Part shown: one piece after another, positions 1,657 through 59,801 of the stretch
How positions within the stretch are numbered: the stretch's first letter is position 1
Layout of the letters: each line of letters starts with the position of its first letter
Assembly: GCA_028534125.1 (NCBI GenBank)
Contig: CM052816.1
Coordinates: 88,972,001 to 89,036,000 of the forward strand
Direction: 5' to 3'
DNA length: 64,000 nt
DNA from: Lama glama
Lineage: Eukaryota
The notes under the pieces: generated by a model
The model's input: the letters and a program-made list of their open reading frames with translations, nothing else
Told to the model about the DNA's origin: nothing
Database searches by the model: none
Made by a program: the position numbers and the translations under genes

Positions 1657-1663
1657 ATTTGAC

Positions 1664-2029
1664 TTTTTTTTTACATTTTTTATTGATTTATAATCATTCC
1701 ACAATGTTGTGTCAGATTCCAGTGCTCAGCACAATTCTTCAGCCATTCATGGACACATACACACTCATTGTCACATTCCCTTCTCTGTGAGTTATCATAA
1801 CATTTTGCGTACACTTCCCTGTGCTATACAGCGTAATCTTGCCCATCCACTCCACAATTTCGAAATCCCAGTCCATCCCTTCCCACCCTCCACCCCCCGG
1901 CAACCACAAGTCTGTATTCTCTGTCTGTGAGTCTATCCCTGTCCTGTATCCATGCTTTGTTTTTGTTTGTTTGTTTGCTTTTGTTTTTGTTTTTTAGATT
2001 CCACATATGAGTGATCTCATATGGTATTT
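1664..2029 (-). mobile_element. Young 5'-truncated L1, 3'UTR only, camelid-type
   Basis: Poly-T at 1664-1672, then L1 3'UTR hallmarks ttccctgtgctatacag, atcccttcccacc and tagattccacatatgagtgatctcatatggtattt. Candidate TSD ATTTGAC at 1657-1663 and 2026-2032. Confidence 0.9.
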
Positions 2030-5000
2030 GACATTGTTGCTCATCAATAATTAGAATTCTATCAATTGAATTGTTCCCTGTGACAGGAATAACCAACTTC
2101 CTCCTCAACCTTCAGCTCATACTCACTTGACCAAACCCCCTTTCATCAAGAACAATCCTAATTCTCTCTCCTTAAAGGCACACTCAGCTCCTACCACCAG
2201 TAGGGAGTAATCAATCTCTATTCAAACTCCGATTTTTAACTTTTTTATACTATTTATGTCCATGAGTTTTACATTCTAGATTTCCTTATAAAGTGATTCC
2301 TCTGGAAATGATCGTGCTTAGCTAGAAAAGATAATCCAGATAGACATGGACCTTTCTGTGGTCCAGGGGTATAAATTGCTGCACAACAGTCTAGCAGATG
2401 CCAGTTTTTAAGACCAATACAATCCTACCAGTGCAGTTGATGCTGGTTAAATTGTTAAAATGCATTTTTTTTTAAATCTCACTTGCTTCATTTGAATTGG
2501 ATAATGAAATTGTTTATAATATCAACAAGACAAAGGTTACCTTTAAAAATGGAAAAGACATAGTATTTTGGTCCCATACACTTATACGGGTACCCATACA
2601 ACAGTATTCTTATGATTGTGTGTCTTGAGCTAAATTCTGTACCCTTTATGTAGTGGTAGAGCCGATTTGGGTGGTGGCTTATTTTCTTAGATAATTGGCC
2701 CCATGGTCAAAGGGAAGCAAAGACTTAAGTTTTTGCCAGGAATGACCTTTCACTACAAGAGTTATTTTAAATATCTATTCTTATCACTAAAGACTTAGTC
2801 TAAAAAGAGCAAAAAATCAATAAACCCATTTAGAGACAGTGAAAAGACAAAGTAGATGATATAGTGGGAGCAGTGAAAGGCAGAGGAAGATGGAAAGAGA
2901 TTGTGTTAATTTGGAGAGTAAAAAAATATATATATATCAAAAGTCTTGCCATTTCCAGTGTTATTAGGACCAAATGTGGAGAAATAGATAACCTTTAAAG
3001 AAGAGTCCAAGTCAAATATTCTAACTTAAAAATAATAGTTTCTGGGAATAATTGAGGTCAAATTTATTGGATTGAAATCAAATAATCCAATTTAGAAATA
3101 AACTCAGATAATAAGGATGCCACTTAAACGGCTTATCTGAACAAAAGCAAACTTTATCCATGGCAAACTAGAACTTGTGAGCGAGCCGAAGGGCTTGCAG
3201 ACAACCGTGACTCCTACTCTTTAGACGCTGGTGGAGGTAAGTGTTTGATCTGCAGCATGACTGCAAACTTCCTAGGGCTGGACACTCTGCAAGCTTCTCT
3301 TCCTGCAGAGAGACCTGTCCCGTTTTTATTTTTGTAGGGCAAGTTTGAGTGTTCTTGAGAGAAGCAAGACGAAAACAATATGTCTTTGGGCACCAAAGAG
3401 CCTGTACCAGGATATCAAATCTTTAAACGTGTTACTGAGAAAATCTGATATGTAGGATCTTCAGACGAGGGGCAGTTGGACTCAGCCCCAGCTCCTCCAG
3501 CAGTCCTGCTTGTCTATCTGCTCAGCACCTCTGATGAAATGTCAGAGTCAGAGTCGGGGCTTTTCATAATCACCAGTCTGCACGGAGAAGGAGAAAACCA
3601 AAGGTGTTGTGGATTGTTGACTCTATGTTAGGCCTCTCAAAAAACAAAACAACAAAAAAATCAATTTTGCACCTTTATAGGCCCAAAGAGGTGAAAGGCT
3701 TGACAAAGGTCACTCGGCGACCATATCATTGTCAGAACCTTGACAAGAAGTGAAATCTCTTTCTGTTTTTTCTATACAATCTTGAATGAAATCTTGGAAT
3801 AAAAAGAGCGAGAGAGAATGAAAGAGGAAGGGAGGAAGAGAGGGAAGAGGAGGTAAAAAGAAAATAACACAAGGAACTCAGCGTAGATCCTATTTTAATC
3901 CACATAAGAAGGTAAACCGGAGGATTATTCAAATTCCAGAAATCCAGATCTTCATTCTGGCTGTGACCGAATCTCCCAGAGTTGACTAGTGTTAAAGAAA
4001 AACACTTTTTGTCCTTTATCTTTTCCATATCTCCACTCAATCTTAGCCGTAGCCCAAACGTTTGTAACATCGGGACAGAATTTCCTGACATGCACTTTTT
4101 AGAACATAAGCTTTGTGATATGCCAATATTAATAGTACTTTCTTGTGAAACAAACTGTGGAGAAACATGTAAAAAAATAATATTTCACTCATAAATTGAT
4201 TACCCAATTCTACTTCTAAAATATAGCAACAATTCTCGAAAATTTTCCCTTTTAGTTATTTAATTGTCCTTTCCAGGATAGTTACTTCAGCAACAGAGCT
4301 CCATTGGAAAAACCTGATATTTAATGTAAGCAACCATTTAAAACATAATAATTTTATTTTTATAGAGGTAATAAATTCTGATATAGTACAACAAAAAAAC
4401 ATACTTACTTTATGATAAAAGATCTATTTATATGTTGTTTTAAATTCTTATTTGAGAGTTGCTAAGATAAAGCTTTTTTTAATCATTATTATTTGTACCT
4501 GGATTTTAGTAGCAAGTTTTCTATTTATAGGAAATAATATTGCTCTTGGCAGGTATTACTGCACTGAAATATACAGAATCCACTCTGGCTTCAAAGGCAG
4601 ATGCTGTCTGAGATAGGTATGCATTAGCTTTATGAAATATCCTTGACTACTTGTCTGAATTCAAGGTTTATTCTCTATCGGCATCTTTTCCTACAGGTTA
4701 TTTTTCAGAATATTTAAGAGTATTTGTTTTATTCAGGACCACTTGTTCCATTTTATGTTCTCTCTATATTTTGGCCACATGTGTAGTTTGATCAAACAGA
4801 AACTTTCATAAGTTGAAAGATGCAGATATTGGAACTGCCGAAAATTCAATATGACTTCAAAAGAAATAGATCAATAGTGATCTGTAATTTGTGTGCCTTT
4901 GTTCGTCCAGTCTGTACCTGCCACAGAACCCTTTGCATTCAGTGTCTCACTGGCATGCATTAGTCAAGGCTCAGTGCATTTGCAAATCCTCACTGAAGCC

Positions 5001-6960: not shown

Positions 6961-9039
6961 GTGAAAAGATAGAGTTTTTAGAATGAGATGCTGATTCTCA
7001 TATACGTATAAAATAATTACAAGCTGAAGATTTATTTCACTTAAAATGTTATAACTGGTTCAAAGGGTATTCAAGGCTTTTTACGTACGCAGATAAAGAA
7101 AGCTGAAATAAATGTATTCAAAGATGCTAAGTTGTCTTTATCTGTTTGTTTGGCTTTGTGTCAGCTATACTGCCCTTTTTTGGTGGCAGATTGATCATCC
7201 ACCAGACAGACTTTATGTATATTTGGACTATGAACATCATAGAGTTATCACCCCCAACCATCACCAGTAGCATCAGATCATTGGAAGACTGTGCTACATA
7301 ATGACTAGTTTTCTGTTGGAAACCTTCGGTAATATTTTTGGTTCATTTAAAAGACTTTCACAATTTTTTTTCCCCCTATGAATGAGTTGCTCAGGCTTCA
7401 GAGAAGATTTGAATGTGCCTCCTGAATTTGTAAAATTCACAAATGCAACTCAGAGTTGAACGGATCCATTCTCTTCTACCTTGAGGGGTGACAGGCTTGA
7501 TTTCTTCTTTTAAATTGATATCATTTATTTGGGGAGTAGCTAGTTGACTTTAAACATGACTTTGTTAGTGGTGGAACGATGGCCCCCGCAAAACCCATAG
7601 GCCTGAACTAGGCTAGTGTTGCCACCTTATTAGCATATTGCTCTGATAGATTTAATGGACCTACTTTCCATAAGTTTAGCCATATAAGCATTTCCATAAA
7701 ACTTTCTATTATAAATGTTCAAGTGAGTCAAGATATTGAGCTCCAGGACTGTGGATATCCTGAAAAGAAACATGAATTTTTCATATCTGTGTTATATATT
7801 TCCTATATAGTTTCCAGTGTTTGCAAACAATTACAACAGAAAGTGTTTAGAACAGCAGTTACTTACTATAGGACTTAGACGAGAAAATATAGGAGACATT
7901 TTAAATACATAAATGCAAAAGAACTAAGTTTGTCTGTTGCTATGGTAGCTACTAGATTTTGGGAAAAAAAAAAAAGGATTTCTCTCTGGGTATCATGGAT
8001 ATCAAAAAGACAAAGGGTGAGAATGTGGTCAGTTAGGTGTGATGTTTTTTTTTCCTTTAAACTGAGTTGGAAGAATTATCTTACCATCTGTGTTCTGTAC
8101 TGAATTTCAAGCACATAAATAAGCAAAACACGACTTGGGATAAAAGCAGCTTGTGTACTGTTCAATGCCAAGTTCATTCTCGTGAAACAGAATGGAATCA
8201 CTTGATTTTAAAAATGTATAATATTGTCTCTTAAAGGCAAATGCTGTACCATTCACATGAATTATAAATGAAGGACCCAAGTTAAGGACTAAAAGGAGAA
8301 ATCAATCTTGAAATTGCGCTCACAAATAGCATCGTTTCACATAATCTTTATGTCTACAGACCGGGGGCCTGTCTAATATTAGTATATTCGTAACAGGCCC
8401 TACAGCTAAGCTCTATTCCAGTGAACAAATACAGGATTTAAGATATGTCATCTCAGTGATTGCAGCTAGTCTGAAAATATGTTAATTTCCCCCCATGATT
8501 GGCTTGTTTTCAAGTGCCTGATCCTTTCATTCACCACGTGAATTACCTTTAAGTACTTACTCACATCTGAGCTTGAACACAGCTTGTACGACCAAGATCA
8601 TCAGTGTCATATCACATCACTTCAACCAGCTTTTCTTTTTGACCCTATTCCATTAGTAACATACTCCTGTTGCACCAAAGCATATTCCATCTACATTTTG
8701 TATCATTTAAAAGAAGGGTTTATTTTTATGTTTTGACATGCAGTGTTACAAAAGGAATCAAAGTCACGAGGAAATGTCTTGCAAATTATTTTGATTATTC
8801 TATTTACTTTAGGTCGTTAGCATAACATACTTGTTCATGAAACTGTAATTTCAAAGTGTTGAAAACCAAAACAGAGCAGTTAGAATTTCTCTGTCAAGCT
8901 ATTTTTTGTCAATTCACTGTGTTCTTTGAAGAATTATTTTTTTTGCCTTGTTCTCTGTTCAGCATCTCTAATTAATAACTTGCAAAAACAAAATCTTGTA
9001 ATAATTTTACAAGGGAGTCTTGTTTAAAATAGTTGGAAT

Positions 9040-24321: not shown

Positions 24322-24832
24322 TTTTCTTTTTTTTTTTTTGGTTCATGTGTCAATCTAATTTTTTTGATTGAAGTATAGTCAGTTATAAAGTGTCAGTCTC
24401 TGGTGTGCAGCCTAATGTCCTAGCCATATATATACATATATATATTCATTTTCATTAAAGGTTATTACAAGATACTGAATATAGTTCCCTGTGCTATACA
24501 GAAGAAATTTGTTTGTTATCTATTCTTATAAAAGCAGTTAATATTTGCAAATCTTGAATTTCCAAATTTATCCCTTCCCATTGCCTTTCCTCCCAGTAAC
24601 CATAAGATTGTTTGCAAAGTCTGCAAGTCTGTTTCTGTTTTGAAGAGGCATTCATTAGTGTCTGCTTTTGAATTGTTTTAGATTCCACATATGAATGATA
24701 TTATATGGTATTTTTCTTTCTCTTTCTGGCTTACTTCACTTAAAGTGATGACTTCTAGGTCCAAACATGTTGCTGCAAATGGCATTATTTTATTCTCTTT
24801 TATGGCTGAGCAGTATTTCTTTGTATAAATAT
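24322..24832 (-). mobile_element. 5'-truncated L1 3'UTR, older artiodactyl/camelid subfamily
   Basis: T-rich tail, attgaagtatagtcagtt, gttccctgtgctatacag, tagattccacatatga, ctggcttacttcactta and gttgctgcaaatggcatta. Confidence 0.9.
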
Positions 24833-26031
24833 AGTTGACATTGACTGTGATCATCATCTCATAATTCTGAACCCAAGAGCCACAGAATCACAATTACAGA
24901 TTAGAAGAGAGTTCTTGACATTGAAGCATATTCTATATATTTTCCTTTACTCCTTGATTCCTATGGACCAGAGAAAACTTAACTAATATTAGCATTTGTC
25001 TGGACAGACTTTCAGGAACCACAGCTCCAAGAAGCTGTCTCTAAAACTTCTTGATTGCACTCAGCCTCATGTAATCAGCAAGAGATTTAACCCATTTCCA
25101 AGTACATGTGTGTTTTGTAATAATAAATTATACATATATACTACTATACTCACATATTATGCAATCTATATAGCATAGACCAAAATAGAATAGAATGTTA
25201 AAAGGATGAATTGAAATGACTGTGAGTTGAAGTCCAAATGTATTTTCCTATACACCAGTGGAAAATGTGAACATCCCTTGTGCTCAACCCAGTTCAGAAA
25301 CCTGTCTGTACAATGACTCTGCTTTTACTTTTGTATAGAAATAAGCTTTGTACTCCTCAAAAGATGCTCATAGAAGGTGACACAGTAAAACAGGAAGTCC
25401 TTTATCAGACTTTTAAAGCCACATCAACCTATCTCTAATAACCTATTTCTGTGTTTTCAACCTCTGTTCTGGTCAGACCCCTAAAAAAATTCTTCCAGTG
25501 TACCTCTTCCAGTTGTCTTTATTAAGGTGAATGATGTGTGCTCGGATTAATCTTGTAGATACTTTAACTCATTTGTTCCACTTACGCCATGGGAGCACTA
25601 ATTCTTTCTGTGGATATATGTCTGAGATGGGAAAAAAAAGACATGTTATTAAAAAAATTCGCTCGTTTAAATTAACTTATTTTAATGAAGAGGAGAGTTG
25701 TTGAATGGTAGTACATAAATTTAGGACAGTGACGTCAATTTAAGACTAGTCAGATGTTAGGACCCGATGCAGATTTGGCAAACACCAGTTCAAAAGCACA
25801 GCAATCTTGCAGACTGTATGCTCTATGTGTGAGTCCTGGATGCTAGGCTGTTGTGAAAATTCAGATAGTCTGAGGCAGTTTTTATATTCTGCCTGACTGA
25901 CCCATTTGTCCTTGAGGATGTATACAGCATCTAAGGACTACATTATGATGCTCTTTCTCTCACTTCTTAAAAGCAGTGGTAGCTTGAAATCAGTCCTTGT
26001 CCCTTATTCCCTACAAAGTGTGTTAAAAAAA

Positions 26032-26531
26032 NNNNNNNNNNNNNNNNNNNNNNNNNNNNNNNNNNNNNNNNNNNNNNNNNNNNNNNNNNNNNNNNNNNNN
26101 NNNNNNNNNNNNNNNNNNNNNNNNNNNNNNNNNNNNNNNNNNNNNNNNNNNNNNNNNNNNNNNNNNNNNNNNNNNNNNNNNNNNNNNNNNNNNNNNNNNN
26201 NNNNNNNNNNNNNNNNNNNNNNNNNNNNNNNNNNNNNNNNNNNNNNNNNNNNNNNNNNNNNNNNNNNNNNNNNNNNNNNNNNNNNNNNNNNNNNNNNNNN
26301 NNNNNNNNNNNNNNNNNNNNNNNNNNNNNNNNNNNNNNNNNNNNNNNNNNNNNNNNNNNNNNNNNNNNNNNNNNNNNNNNNNNNNNNNNNNNNNNNNNNN
26401 NNNNNNNNNNNNNNNNNNNNNNNNNNNNNNNNNNNNNNNNNNNNNNNNNNNNNNNNNNNNNNNNNNNNNNNNNNNNNNNNNNNNNNNNNNNNNNNNNNNN
26501 NNNNNNNNNNNNNNNNNNNNNNNNNNNNNNN
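26032..26531. other. Assembly gap (500 N)
   Basis: Exactly 500 N. Confidence 1.
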
Positions 26532-59301: not shown

Positions 59302-59801
59302 NNNNNNNNNNNNNNNNNNNNNNNNNNNNNNNNNNNNNNNNNNNNNNNNNNNNNNNNNNNNNNNNNNNNNNNNNNNNNNNNNNNNNNNNNNNNNNNNNNN
59401 NNNNNNNNNNNNNNNNNNNNNNNNNNNNNNNNNNNNNNNNNNNNNNNNNNNNNNNNNNNNNNNNNNNNNNNNNNNNNNNNNNNNNNNNNNNNNNNNNNNN
59501 NNNNNNNNNNNNNNNNNNNNNNNNNNNNNNNNNNNNNNNNNNNNNNNNNNNNNNNNNNNNNNNNNNNNNNNNNNNNNNNNNNNNNNNNNNNNNNNNNNNN
59601 NNNNNNNNNNNNNNNNNNNNNNNNNNNNNNNNNNNNNNNNNNNNNNNNNNNNNNNNNNNNNNNNNNNNNNNNNNNNNNNNNNNNNNNNNNNNNNNNNNNN
59701 NNNNNNNNNNNNNNNNNNNNNNNNNNNNNNNNNNNNNNNNNNNNNNNNNNNNNNNNNNNNNNNNNNNNNNNNNNNNNNNNNNNNNNNNNNNNNNNNNNNN
59801 N
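59302..59801. other. Assembly gap (500 N)
   Basis: Exactly 500 N. Confidence 1.

What the first reader, a model, noticed from the sequence alone, without database searches (positions are those of the whole stretch)
1664..2029. Young L1 insertion with an apparent fossil A-to-I (ADAR) hyper-editing footprint
Seen: where L1 3'UTRs are T-rich on this strand, this copy has clustered C. Against the related L1 at 24.5 kb, gcccatccactcc pairs with gttatctattct, tccatcccttccc with tttatcccttccc, gtctatccctgtcctg with gtctgtttctgttttg, and ggcaacc with agtaacc. It also keeps four CpGs (near 1807, 1832, 1861, 1898) that look like TG>CG products. Against my recalled young camelid L1 consensus (unverified), roughly two dozen differences are T>C and very few are anything else. 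Because the element is on the minus strand, these are A>G in the L1 RNA. Established: ADAR converts A to I in dsRNA, often in clusters, and reverse transcriptase reads I as G. Inference: a hyper-edited L1 transcript was retrotransposed and fixed, with a candidate TSD ATTTGAC.
Basis: partly seen in the sequence, partly recalled or inferred. Interest (0 to 1): 0.8.

Follow-up and report, generated by a model that had tools for sequence, protein, structure and literature searches.

The report
L1 insertion carrying RNA-editing scars
A short, young LINE-1 insertion differs from thousands of sister copies almost only by about 26 A-to-G changes on its RNA-sense strand, the mark expected if its RNA was heavily edited by ADAR before being copied into germline DNA.

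Summary

**What it is.** Window 1664-2029 is a 366-bp, 5'-truncated L1 3' end on the minus strand. It has a 9-nt tail and a 7-bp target-site duplication, and it sits in single-copy DNA.

**The spectrum.** Against the column majority of its 29 closest genomic paralogs it has 30 differences: 27 T>C on the + strand (A>G in L1 sense), 1 A>G, 1 CpG C>T and 1 deletion. There are no transversions. One site, 1901, is polymorphic in the family, which leaves 26 T>C.

**Not a subfamily.**
- The unedited 40-mer occurs at 7,427 places at 3 or fewer mismatches. The edited 42-mer occurs only here.
- No copy is more than 91% identical overall.

**Not strand-symmetric.** 27 of 160 T changed against 1 of 75 A (p=3e-4).

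**Distribution and context.**
- All changes lie in an internal 280-nt tract: 0 of 42 end Ts against 27 of 118 interior Ts (p=2e-4).
- The sense 5' neighbour ranks U>A>C>G, as for ADAR.

**Independent support.** Twenty runs from 8 studies hold 64-74% of the locus's 31-mers.

**Not shown.** No dsRNA partner was identified, and there is no 3' G enrichment. A second copy, L014, carries a lighter private cluster.

The parts
1657..1663 (+). Left copy of the 7-bp target-site duplication (ATTTGAC), next to the tail
   Evidence: Direct reading. An identical heptamer lies at 2023-2029.
1664..1672 (-). Poly-A tail of the L1 copy (9 T on the + strand). An AATAAA signal lies just upstream in the sense orientation.
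   Evidence: sense strand ends ...AAUAAAAAAUGU-A9. Paralogs begin their homology here.
1673..2029 (-). 5'-truncated 3' end (3' UTR region) of a young, high-copy L1 family
   Evidence: 3,425 candidates, 40 scored, non-self hits 89-91% identical over 1-366; 7,427 genomic matches to the family's unedited 40-mer. Homology to paralogs ends at about 2029 while they continue.
1699..1978 (-). Hyper-edited tract: 26-27 sense-strand A>G changes (T>C on +) at 22-23% of the tract's 118 sense adenosines. Positions: 1699, 1700, 1725, 1737, 1743, 1756, 1778-1780, 1808, 1812, 1814, 1832, 1842-1844, 1848, 1850, 1853, 1861, 1874, (1901 polymorphic), 1937, 1938, 1950, 1951, 1978.
   Evidence: site list with column counts. 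(0 of 42 T columns edited in the two ends against 27 of 118 inside, Fisher p=1.7e-4). (neighbour context).
2023..2029 (+). Right copy of the target-site duplication. Its first four bases (ATTT) also match the L1 sequence, so the junction has 4 nt of microhomology and the duplication could be as short as GAC.
   Evidence: Paralog majority continues GGTATTTTTC where this copy reads GGTATTTGAC.

Best explanation
An L1 transcript of a young, abundant family had about 280 nt of its 3' UTR held in double-stranded RNA. An adenosine deaminase acting on RNA converted roughly a fifth of the adenosines there to inosine. ADAR1 is the likelier enzyme, because the editing is promiscuous and shows no 3' G preference.

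The L1 reverse transcriptase read inosine as guanosine during target-primed reverse transcription. The 5'-truncated cDNA was fixed in the germline at a single-copy site. The locus is therefore a DNA record of an RNA hyper-editing event. No function is implied for it.

Shown:
- the strand-pure A>G spectrum;
- its privacy to this one copy;
- its confinement to the interior of the element;
- the U>A>C>G 5' context;
- the insertion hallmarks.

Inferred:
- that the changes arose before integration;
- the enzyme;
- the duplex partner. The most plausible partner is an inverted L1 3' end in the same read-through transcript, or an antisense transcript.
For: **Spectrum.**
- 27 T>C of 30 differences against 29 nearest paralogs.
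- 23 of 25 against 56 paralogs over 1673-1946. There, 53 ordinary copies have 0-4 T>C, mean 1.4.
- 16 of 18 substitutions against 52 copies chosen independently of the query. In that sample, no copy with more than 8 substitutions exceeds 10/24.

**Hyper-editing thresholds.** The cluster passes the operational thresholds of Porath et al. 2014 (PMC4365171, methods passage read). A>G must be at least 5% of length, and here it is 27/366 = 7.4%. It must exceed 60% of mismatches, and here it is 90%.

**Strand asymmetry.** 27/160 T against 1/75 A, p=3e-4.

**Privacy.** Searches show that no other copy shares the C cluster.

**Polarity.** T is the state in thousands of copies and in the older L1 at 24.3 kb.

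**Context.**
- Edited fraction U 36% > A 18% > C 9% > G 6.5%.
- A/U against C/G 5' neighbour, Fisher p=0.017.
- Porath et al. report G depleted upstream of hyper-editing sites.
- Ordinary copies' T>C changes have a different context: 30 of 73 lie at TG>CG, against 3 of 23 here.

**Tract boundaries.** The tract ends inside the element on both sides.

**Youth.** Background divergence is only 3 non-T>C differences in about 350 nt, and three edit-created CpGs are still intact.

**Reality of the copy.** The flanks are single copy, and 20 runs from 8 studies hold words that only this copy can supply.

**A second case.** L014 has a private cluster of the same kind: 12 T>C of 16 differences, 8 of them within 49 bp, and the 58-mer is unique at 3 or fewer mismatches.
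Against: - **No duplex partner identified.** The sense 3' UTR of an unedited copy does not fold better than shuffles (z=-1.2, 10 of 100 shuffles as good).
- **No 3' G enrichment** (3/21 edited with 3' G; chi-square p=0.59).
- **5' G depletion alone is not significant** (2/31 against 25/129, p=0.11).
- **The flanks cannot be polarised,** because no orthologue or paralogue is available. That the cluster predates integration therefore rests on its internal boundaries, not on a direct test.
- **Cell-culture work argues the other way.** It found no editing of L1 RNA by ADAR1 or ADAR2, and restriction was editing-independent (PMC5224506 section 16; PMC8677026 discussion).
- **Ascertainment.** L014 and the milder copies L021 and L010 were retrieved by similarity to this copy, so their site overlap is biased. 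The unbiased sample of 52 copies contained no second clear case.
Confidence: 0.75

Rival explanations
1. Error-prone DNA synthesis during or just after integration. For example, second-strand synthesis or gap filling by a low-fidelity polymerase such as Pol eta, or by the L1 reverse transcriptase under a skewed dNTP pool, would put G opposite T on the sense strand and give strand-specific A>G.
For: The changes are strand-specific and favour a 5' A or U (22 of 27 sites). From my recollection, not from a call, this also resembles the WA motif of Pol eta. The element-internal location fits a process tied to insertion.
Against: All 27 changes at sense A are transitions, and no transversion occurs anywhere in the element. 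From recall, Pol eta-type mutagenesis gives many A>T and A>C as well; even if 80% were A>G, 27 of 27 has P=0.002. A next-nucleotide effect of pool imbalance would predict 3' G or 5' G enrichment, and neither is seen. A changed fraction of 22-23% of adenosines is high for polymerase error.
Confidence: 0.1
2. The mutation happened at the DNA level after insertion. Possibilities are a localised, strand-biased cluster (transcription- or R-loop-associated adenine deamination of the minus strand, or an unknown kataegis-like A>G process), or biased gene conversion.
For: The flanks could not be polarised, so extension beyond the element is untested.
Against: Biased gene conversion is strand-symmetric, and the data are 27:1 with 160 T and 75 A available (p=3e-4). 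No donor carrying the C bases exists in the genome. Other substitution classes are at about 1%. The tract stops 35 nt and 51 nt inside the two junctions despite 42 available T. A second, unlinked L1 copy shows the same polarity relative to L1 sense.
Confidence: 0.07
3. Assembly or sequencing artefact: the C bases are not in the animal's genome.
For: The best run may be the assembly's own source (note).
Against: Twenty runs from 8 studies and 5 organism labels hold 0.64-0.74 of the sampled 31-mers of 1400-2300. Flank-only and non-diagnostic words make up 0.555, so at least 19-42% of the words that contain a private base or a junction must be present. I know of no sequencing chemistry that yields T>C only, on one strand, only inside one repeat copy.
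Confidence: 0.05
4. The C bases are diagnostic of a small L1 subfamily or of an older lineage.
For: Five of the sites carry C in 3-8 of 56 similarity-selected paralogs, and 1901 is polymorphic.
Against: Those shared C bases occur singly in different copies, not nested. No copy shares more than 5 (L014). The edited 42-mer is unique against 7,427 unedited matches. The best overall identity is 91%. An older L1 has T at most sites.
Confidence: 0.02

Closest known systems
ADAR-type A>G hypermutation recorded in integrated retroviral proviruses (BLV; HTLV-2 and STLV-3 cited there)
   Same: RNA editing followed by reverse transcription leaves clustered A>G changes in integrated DNA. The PCIP-seq preprint (10.1101/558130, passages read) reports three BLV proviruses with 7 or more A>G in about 70 bp and ascribes them to ADAR1.
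   Different: Those are somatic proviruses of exogenous retroviruses with short clusters. This is a germline-fixed non-LTR (L1) insertion with 26-27 changes over 280 nt.
APOBEC3 'DNA editing' fossils in endogenous retroelements
   Same: Both are a hypermutated retroelement copy that integrated and was inherited, detected as a one-type mismatch cluster against its paralogs (Zaranek et al. 2010, PMC2873906, passages read; Carmi et al. 2011 is recalled only and is not held).
   Different: APOBEC3 deaminates C on the cDNA and gives sense G>A. Here there are 0 G>A and 27 A>G. Zaranek et al. used A>G clusters only as the comparison class.
Hyper-edited repeat-containing transcripts seen in RNA-seq
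   Same: Cluster density, purity and upstream-G depletion match the operational definition (Porath et al. 2014, PMC4365171).
   Different: Those are RNA-only events beside unchanged DNA. Here the changes are in the genome itself. No 3' G enrichment is seen here.
ADAR1 and ADAR2 restriction of L1 retrotransposition in cultured cells
   Same: Both involve ADARs meeting L1 RNA (PMC5224506; PMC8677026).
   Different: Those studies detected no A>I change in L1 RNA by Sanger sequencing and concluded that restriction is editing-independent. This locus implies that edited L1 RNA can exist and complete integration in vivo.

Membership tests
L1 (LINE-1) retrotransposon insertion | Homology to a multi-copy L1 3' end, ending in a poly-A tail after a polyadenylation signal | tested here: met
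   (3,425 candidates; 7,427 pattern matches). Tail of 9 A with AAUAAA upstream.
L1 (LINE-1) retrotransposon insertion | Target-site duplication flanking the insert, within otherwise unique DNA | tested here: met
   ATTTGAC at 1657-1663 and 2023-2029. Flanks are single copy. Caveats: it is only 7 bp, 4 of them are shared with L1 sequence, and the implied nick site (GAC/AT) does not resemble the TTTT/AA preference, which I recall rather than tested.
ADAR hyper-editing cluster | One-type A>G cluster on one strand: at least 5% of length and more than 60% of all mismatches (criteria of Porath et al. 2014) | tested here: met
   27/366 = 7.4% and 27/30 = 90%. Criteria read.
ADAR hyper-editing cluster | G depleted at the 5' neighbour (U>A>C>G) | tested here: inconclusive
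   The ranking is as expected: U 9/25, A 13/71, C 3/33, G 2/31 (chi-square p=0.015; A/U against C/G p=0.017). G against non-G alone gives p=0.11.
ADAR hyper-editing cluster | G enriched at the 3' neighbour | tested here: not met
   3/21 edited with 3' G against 13/71 with A and 7/31 with C (p=0.59). This preference is the weaker one and, from recall, is mainly a trait of ADAR2.
ADAR hyper-editing cluster | Long double-stranded RNA substrate | not testable with these tools
   The source locus is unknown among more than 7,000 copies. The 3' UTR alone does not fold significantly (z=-1.2). Inverted pairs of this 3' end do exist in the genome (L023; C1:17299684 + and 17300441 -).
ADAR hyper-editing cluster | Inosine or A>G seen at the RNA level, dependent on ADAR | not testable with these tools
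APOBEC3-edited retroelement | Sense-strand G>A cluster | tested here: not met
   0 G>A on either reading of the strand. The single C>T is at a CpG.
GC-biased gene conversion tract | Strand-symmetric AT>GC changes | tested here: not met
   27 T>C against 1 A>G with 160 T and 75 A (p=3e-4).

The most novel reading that the evidence does not exclude
ADAR hyper-editing is a recurrent, heritable source of mutation for this L1 family. Edited L1 RNAs are not excluded from retrotransposition in the germline. At least two unlinked insertions, this one and the copy at G000:C6:23453086, carry private sense-strand A>G clusters that overlap at five sites. That hints at a reproducible duplex, for example an active progenitor lying beside an inverted 3' end. 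A genome-wide strand-resolved scan would then reveal a whole class of such fossils. It would also give a direct in vivo measure of ADAR-L1 encounters, which cell-culture assays failed to detect.
Probability: 0.4. Interest if true: 0.8.

Novelty: new variant of a known kind. Interest (0 to 1): 0.66.

Why it matters
APOBEC3 footprints in inherited retroelements are well documented. The matching footprint of the other deaminase family, ADAR, has been expected but not established.

- Goodier's 2016 review says a role for ADAR editing in retroelement evolution 'has not yet been determined' (PMC4982230).
- Reporter assays saw no editing of L1 RNA.
- Ten full-text searches turned up no report of a germline L1 insertion with an ADAR-type cluster. 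Subscription journals are not covered, and Carmi et al. 2011 could not be read.

A clean natural example shows three things. Hyper-edited L1 RNA can be reverse transcribed and integrated. RNA editing can be written into the genome in one step, here adding 26 GC pairs and three CpGs. The question can be tested genome-wide by simple strand-resolved counting.

The locus itself is most likely neutral.

Tried and rejected
- **The search of earlier findings by place and by words.** Nothing was returned.
- **Extending the comparison into the L1 body.** The paralogs are truncated at different points and the alignment degraded beyond about 600 columns. L014 runs into an assembly gap, so I could not ask whether editing continues upstream in any copy.
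- **Self-folding of the 3' UTR as the ADAR substrate.** It is no better than shuffles, so I dropped it as the explanation for the duplex.
- **Other young copies of this L1 family in the window as a regional mutation control.** Only the older, 85%-identical L1 near 24.7 kb matched, so no such control exists.
- **The pattern search as a genome-wide scan for other edited copies.** Only the first 100 of 7,427 matches are listed, all exact, so it gave a copy number but no spectrum.
- **The random sample of 100 copies.** 48 were too short in the aligned region and were dropped. The remaining 52 span several subfamilies (1-12% from the majority), so their raw T>C counts (up to 10) reflect subfamily differences. 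I used the share of T>C instead.
- **L021 (6 T>C of 6) and L010 (5 of 8).** I considered them as further cases and set them aside. P(6 or more) is 0.003 per copy, which is not significant across 56 copies.
- **Site overlap between this copy and L014 as evidence for editing hot spots.** I set it aside, because L014 was found by similarity to this copy.

Full report
**What is at the coordinates.** On the + strand, window 1664-2029 reads as a run of nine T followed by the reverse complement of an L1 3' end. The element is therefore on the minus strand. Its sense RNA ends in AAUAAA, a few bases and a nine-A tail. The heptamer ATTTGAC lies directly left of the tail (1657-1663) and again at the other end (2023-2029). 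Its first four bases also match the L1 sequence, which in sister copies continues past this point. So the copy is 5'-truncated at about 366 nt and joined with microhomology. Both flanks (1200-1663 and 2030-2500) are single copy in the 2.35-Gb assembly that holds the window.

**The family.**
- A search of the window's own genome with the element gave 3,425 first-look candidates. The 40 that were scored covered the whole query, but the non-self hits were only 89-91% identical.
- A 40-nt stretch taken unchanged from a typical copy (L002) matches 7,427 places at 3 or fewer mismatches (3,452 forward and 3,975 reverse; 0 for the reversed control).
- The nearest paralogs differ from their own column majority by only 3-17 positions, so the family is young and abundant.

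**The substitution spectrum.**
- I aligned the element with the 29 fetched paralogs (L002-L030) and compared it with the column majority.
- Inside the element there are 30 differences: 27 T>C on the + strand, 1 A>G (1715), 1 C>T at a CpG (2012) and 1 one-base deletion (1898). There are no G>A changes and no transversions.
- One more A/T difference lies at the tail boundary (1672).
- With a larger set over the columns equivalent to 1673-1946, the copy has 23 T>C of 25 differences. That set held 61 retrieved sequences, of which 57 were distinct, giving 56 paralogs.
- Fifty-three ordinary copies have 0-4 T>C (mean 1.38). The Poisson probability of 23 or more is about 2e-20.

**Control for retrieval bias.** Those paralogs were retrieved by similarity to T>C-rich queries. 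I therefore also fetched the first 100 places that carry the exact unedited 40-mer on contig C1.
- 48 did not cover the region and were dropped.
- In the other 52, counting outside the 40-mer, this copy has 16 T>C of 18 substitutions.
- The highest T>C shares in the sample come from copies with few substitutions: 3/5, 4/7 and 4/8. The highest count is 10 of 24, in a divergent copy.

**Is T the ancestral state, and are the C bases private?**
- At the 24 sites scored in the random sample, C occurs in 0-4 of 52 copies. The exception is 1901, which is polymorphic (25 C, 26 T, 1 A) and should not be counted as an edit. That leaves 26.
- The 42-nt stretch 1838-1879, which holds nine of the changes, is unique in the genome at 3 or fewer mismatches.
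- Searches with 1690-1765 and 1766-1837 found no other place above 93% and 92%.
- Where similarity-selected paralogs share a C, they share it singly and in different copies, not as a nested set. Only L014 shares five.
- The subfamily explanation is therefore excluded.

**Strand asymmetry and distribution.**
- The majority sequence offers 160 T and 75 A on the + strand. 27 T and 1 A changed to the GC partner (binomial p=3.0e-4, Fisher p=3.3e-4; p=4e-4 without 1901). That is not what biased gene conversion or any strand-symmetric process gives.
- All changes lie between 1699 and 1978.
- The 15 T columns of 1673-1698 and the 27 of 1979-2029 are untouched, against 27 of 118 in the interior (Fisher p=1.7e-4).
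- The tract therefore ends inside the element on both sides, and about 22-23% of its sense adenosines are changed.

**Sequence context.**
- Read on the L1 sense strand, the edited fraction by 5' neighbour is U 9/25, A 13/71, C 3/33 and G 2/31 (chi-square p=0.015). For A/U against C/G, p=0.017, and for U against the rest, p=0.016.
- That is the order reported for ADARs. Porath et al. 2014 describe G depleted upstream and enriched downstream of hyper-editing sites (PMC4365171, passages read).
- Two points go against a perfect match. G against non-G alone gives p=0.11, and the 3' neighbour shows no preference (p=0.59).
- The T>C changes of ordinary copies have another context: 30 of 73 are TG>CG, against 3 of 23 here.
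- The cluster passes the operational thresholds of Porath et al., which require A>G to be at least 5% of length and more than 60% of mismatches (methods read). Here the values are 7.4% and 90%.

**Is the copy real?**
- I could not lay reads.
- Indirectly, 20 runs from 8 studies and 5 coded organism labels hold 0.64-0.74 of 94 sampled 31-mers from 1400-2300.
- Words that lie wholly in the flanks, plus the 8 element words without a private base, make up 0.555 of all words. So even if every one of those is held, 19-42% of the words that contain a private base or a junction must be held too.
- This supports the existence of the edited copy in independent samples, but it is not a base-by-base confirmation.

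**Mechanism.** The simplest account uses established steps:
1. ADAR deaminates A to I in double-stranded RNA, often in clusters.
2. Reverse transcriptases read I as G.
3. L1 integrates a cDNA of its own RNA.

A hyper-edited L1 3' UTR that went through target-primed reverse transcription would give exactly this result: sense A>G only, limited to a tract within the insert, in a copy whose other divergence is about 1% (3 of about 350). Three CpGs made by the edits (1808, 1832, 1861) are still intact.

**What is not shown is the duplex.**
- The unedited 3' UTR alone folds no better than shuffles (z=-1.2). The edited copy's sense RNA also folds no better than shuffles (z=+0.7).
- The partner was probably outside the inserted part: an inverted L1 3' end in the same transcript, or an antisense transcript.
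- Inverted pairs of this 3' end do occur in the genome. L023 has a second, inverted 140-nt copy about 0.5 kb away, and C1:17299684 (+) lies about 0.75 kb from C1:17300441 (-).
- Which ADAR acted cannot be told. Promiscuous editing without 3' G preference fits ADAR1 better; that statement is from my own knowledge and from the discussion in PMC8677026.

**Rivals.**
- *Error-prone synthesis of the sense strand at integration* would also be strand-specific and, from recall, Pol eta favours WA. But all 27 changes at sense A are transitions, no transversion occurs anywhere (P=0.002 even if 80% of such errors were A>G), and the neighbour effects expected from dNTP imbalance are absent.
- *A DNA-level process after insertion* cannot be excluded directly, because the flanks cannot be polarised. 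It is disfavoured by the purity, the density, the internal boundaries, and a second unlinked copy with the same polarity relative to L1 sense.
- *Artefact and subfamily* explanations are dealt with above.

**A second copy.**
- L014 (G000:C6:23453086-23453452) has 12 T>C of 16 differences over 1673-1946 and no A>G. Eight of them lie within 49 bp.
- The 58-nt stretch that holds them is unique at 3 or fewer mismatches, and its nearest relative is 96% identical.
- The Poisson P for 12 or more is 3e-8.
- It shares five sites with the window's copy. It was found by similarity to that copy, so the overlap is biased.
- It runs into an assembly gap after about 385 nt.

**Comparison with what is known.**
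- A>G clusters in integrated proviruses have been ascribed to ADAR1 (BLV, with HTLV-2 and STLV-3 cited; preprint 10.1101/558130, passages read).
- Inherited APOBEC3-type G>A clusters in retroelements are established. Zaranek et al. 2010 (PMC2873906, passages read) used A>G clusters only as the comparison class.
- For L1, reporter studies found no editing of the RNA and concluded that restriction by ADAR1 and ADAR2 is editing-independent (PMC5224506 section 16; PMC8677026 discussion).
- A 2016 review states that a role for ADAR editing in retroelement evolution had not been determined (PMC4982230).
- My ten full-text searches found no report of a germline L1 insertion with such a footprint. This cannot rule one out in journals that the library does not hold, and Carmi et al. 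2011 could not be read.

**Verdict.**
- It is a new variant of a known kind of event: deaminase hypermutation written into the genome through reverse transcription, here by the ADAR route in a non-LTR element.
- The locus is probably neutral. Its value is as proof of principle and as the seed for a genome-wide, strand-resolved scan.

Noticed in passing
L014:1501-1885 (G000:C6:23453086-23453452): A second L1 3' end of the same family with a private, lighter sense A>G cluster. It has 12 T>C of 16 differences, 8 of them within 49 bp. The 58-mer is unique at 3 or fewer mismatches. The copy is followed by an assembly gap.
   Followed up: partly
L021 (G000:C1:86818641-86819002) and L010 (G000:C84110:98-464): Two further copies whose few differences are mostly T>C (6 of 6 and 5 of 8 over 1673-1946). 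This is not significant after allowing for 56 copies, and they were retrieved by similarity to the query.
   Followed up: partly
window 24326-24833: An older, diverged L1 3' end, also on the minus strand (poly-T at about 24326-24340). It is about 83-86% identical to the young family over its conserved part and served as an outgroup for polarity.
   Followed up: partly
window 1901 and family-wide: The young family is split about evenly (25 C, 26 T) at the position equivalent to 1901. A second polymorphic column is equivalent to 1926 (19 of 56 C). These are probably markers of two subfamilies.
   Followed up: no
G000:C1:17299684-17300480; G000:C1:9343863-9344601; L023:1501-2540: Closely spaced pairs of this L1 3' end. 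Two are inverted (about 0.5-0.75 kb apart) and one is tandem (about 0.7 kb). Inverted pairs would give dsRNA if transcribed together.
   Followed up: no
53 ordinary paralogs, columns equivalent to window 1673-1946: Even ordinary copies show more T>C (73) than A>G (25) per available base, about 1.6-fold. Much of this is TG>CG (30 of 73). It may reflect ancestral CpG variants, retrieval bias or low-level editing.
   Followed up: no
window 26032-26531 and 59302-59801: Two runs of exactly 500 N each (assembly gaps or withheld stretches).
   Followed up: no
window 3150-3600: A stretch with somewhat higher CpG content (observed/expected about 0.4) and a sequence ending in GGTAAGT, which could be an exon with a splice donor. 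I did not establish whether the L1 insertion lies in a transcribed gene.
   Followed up: no
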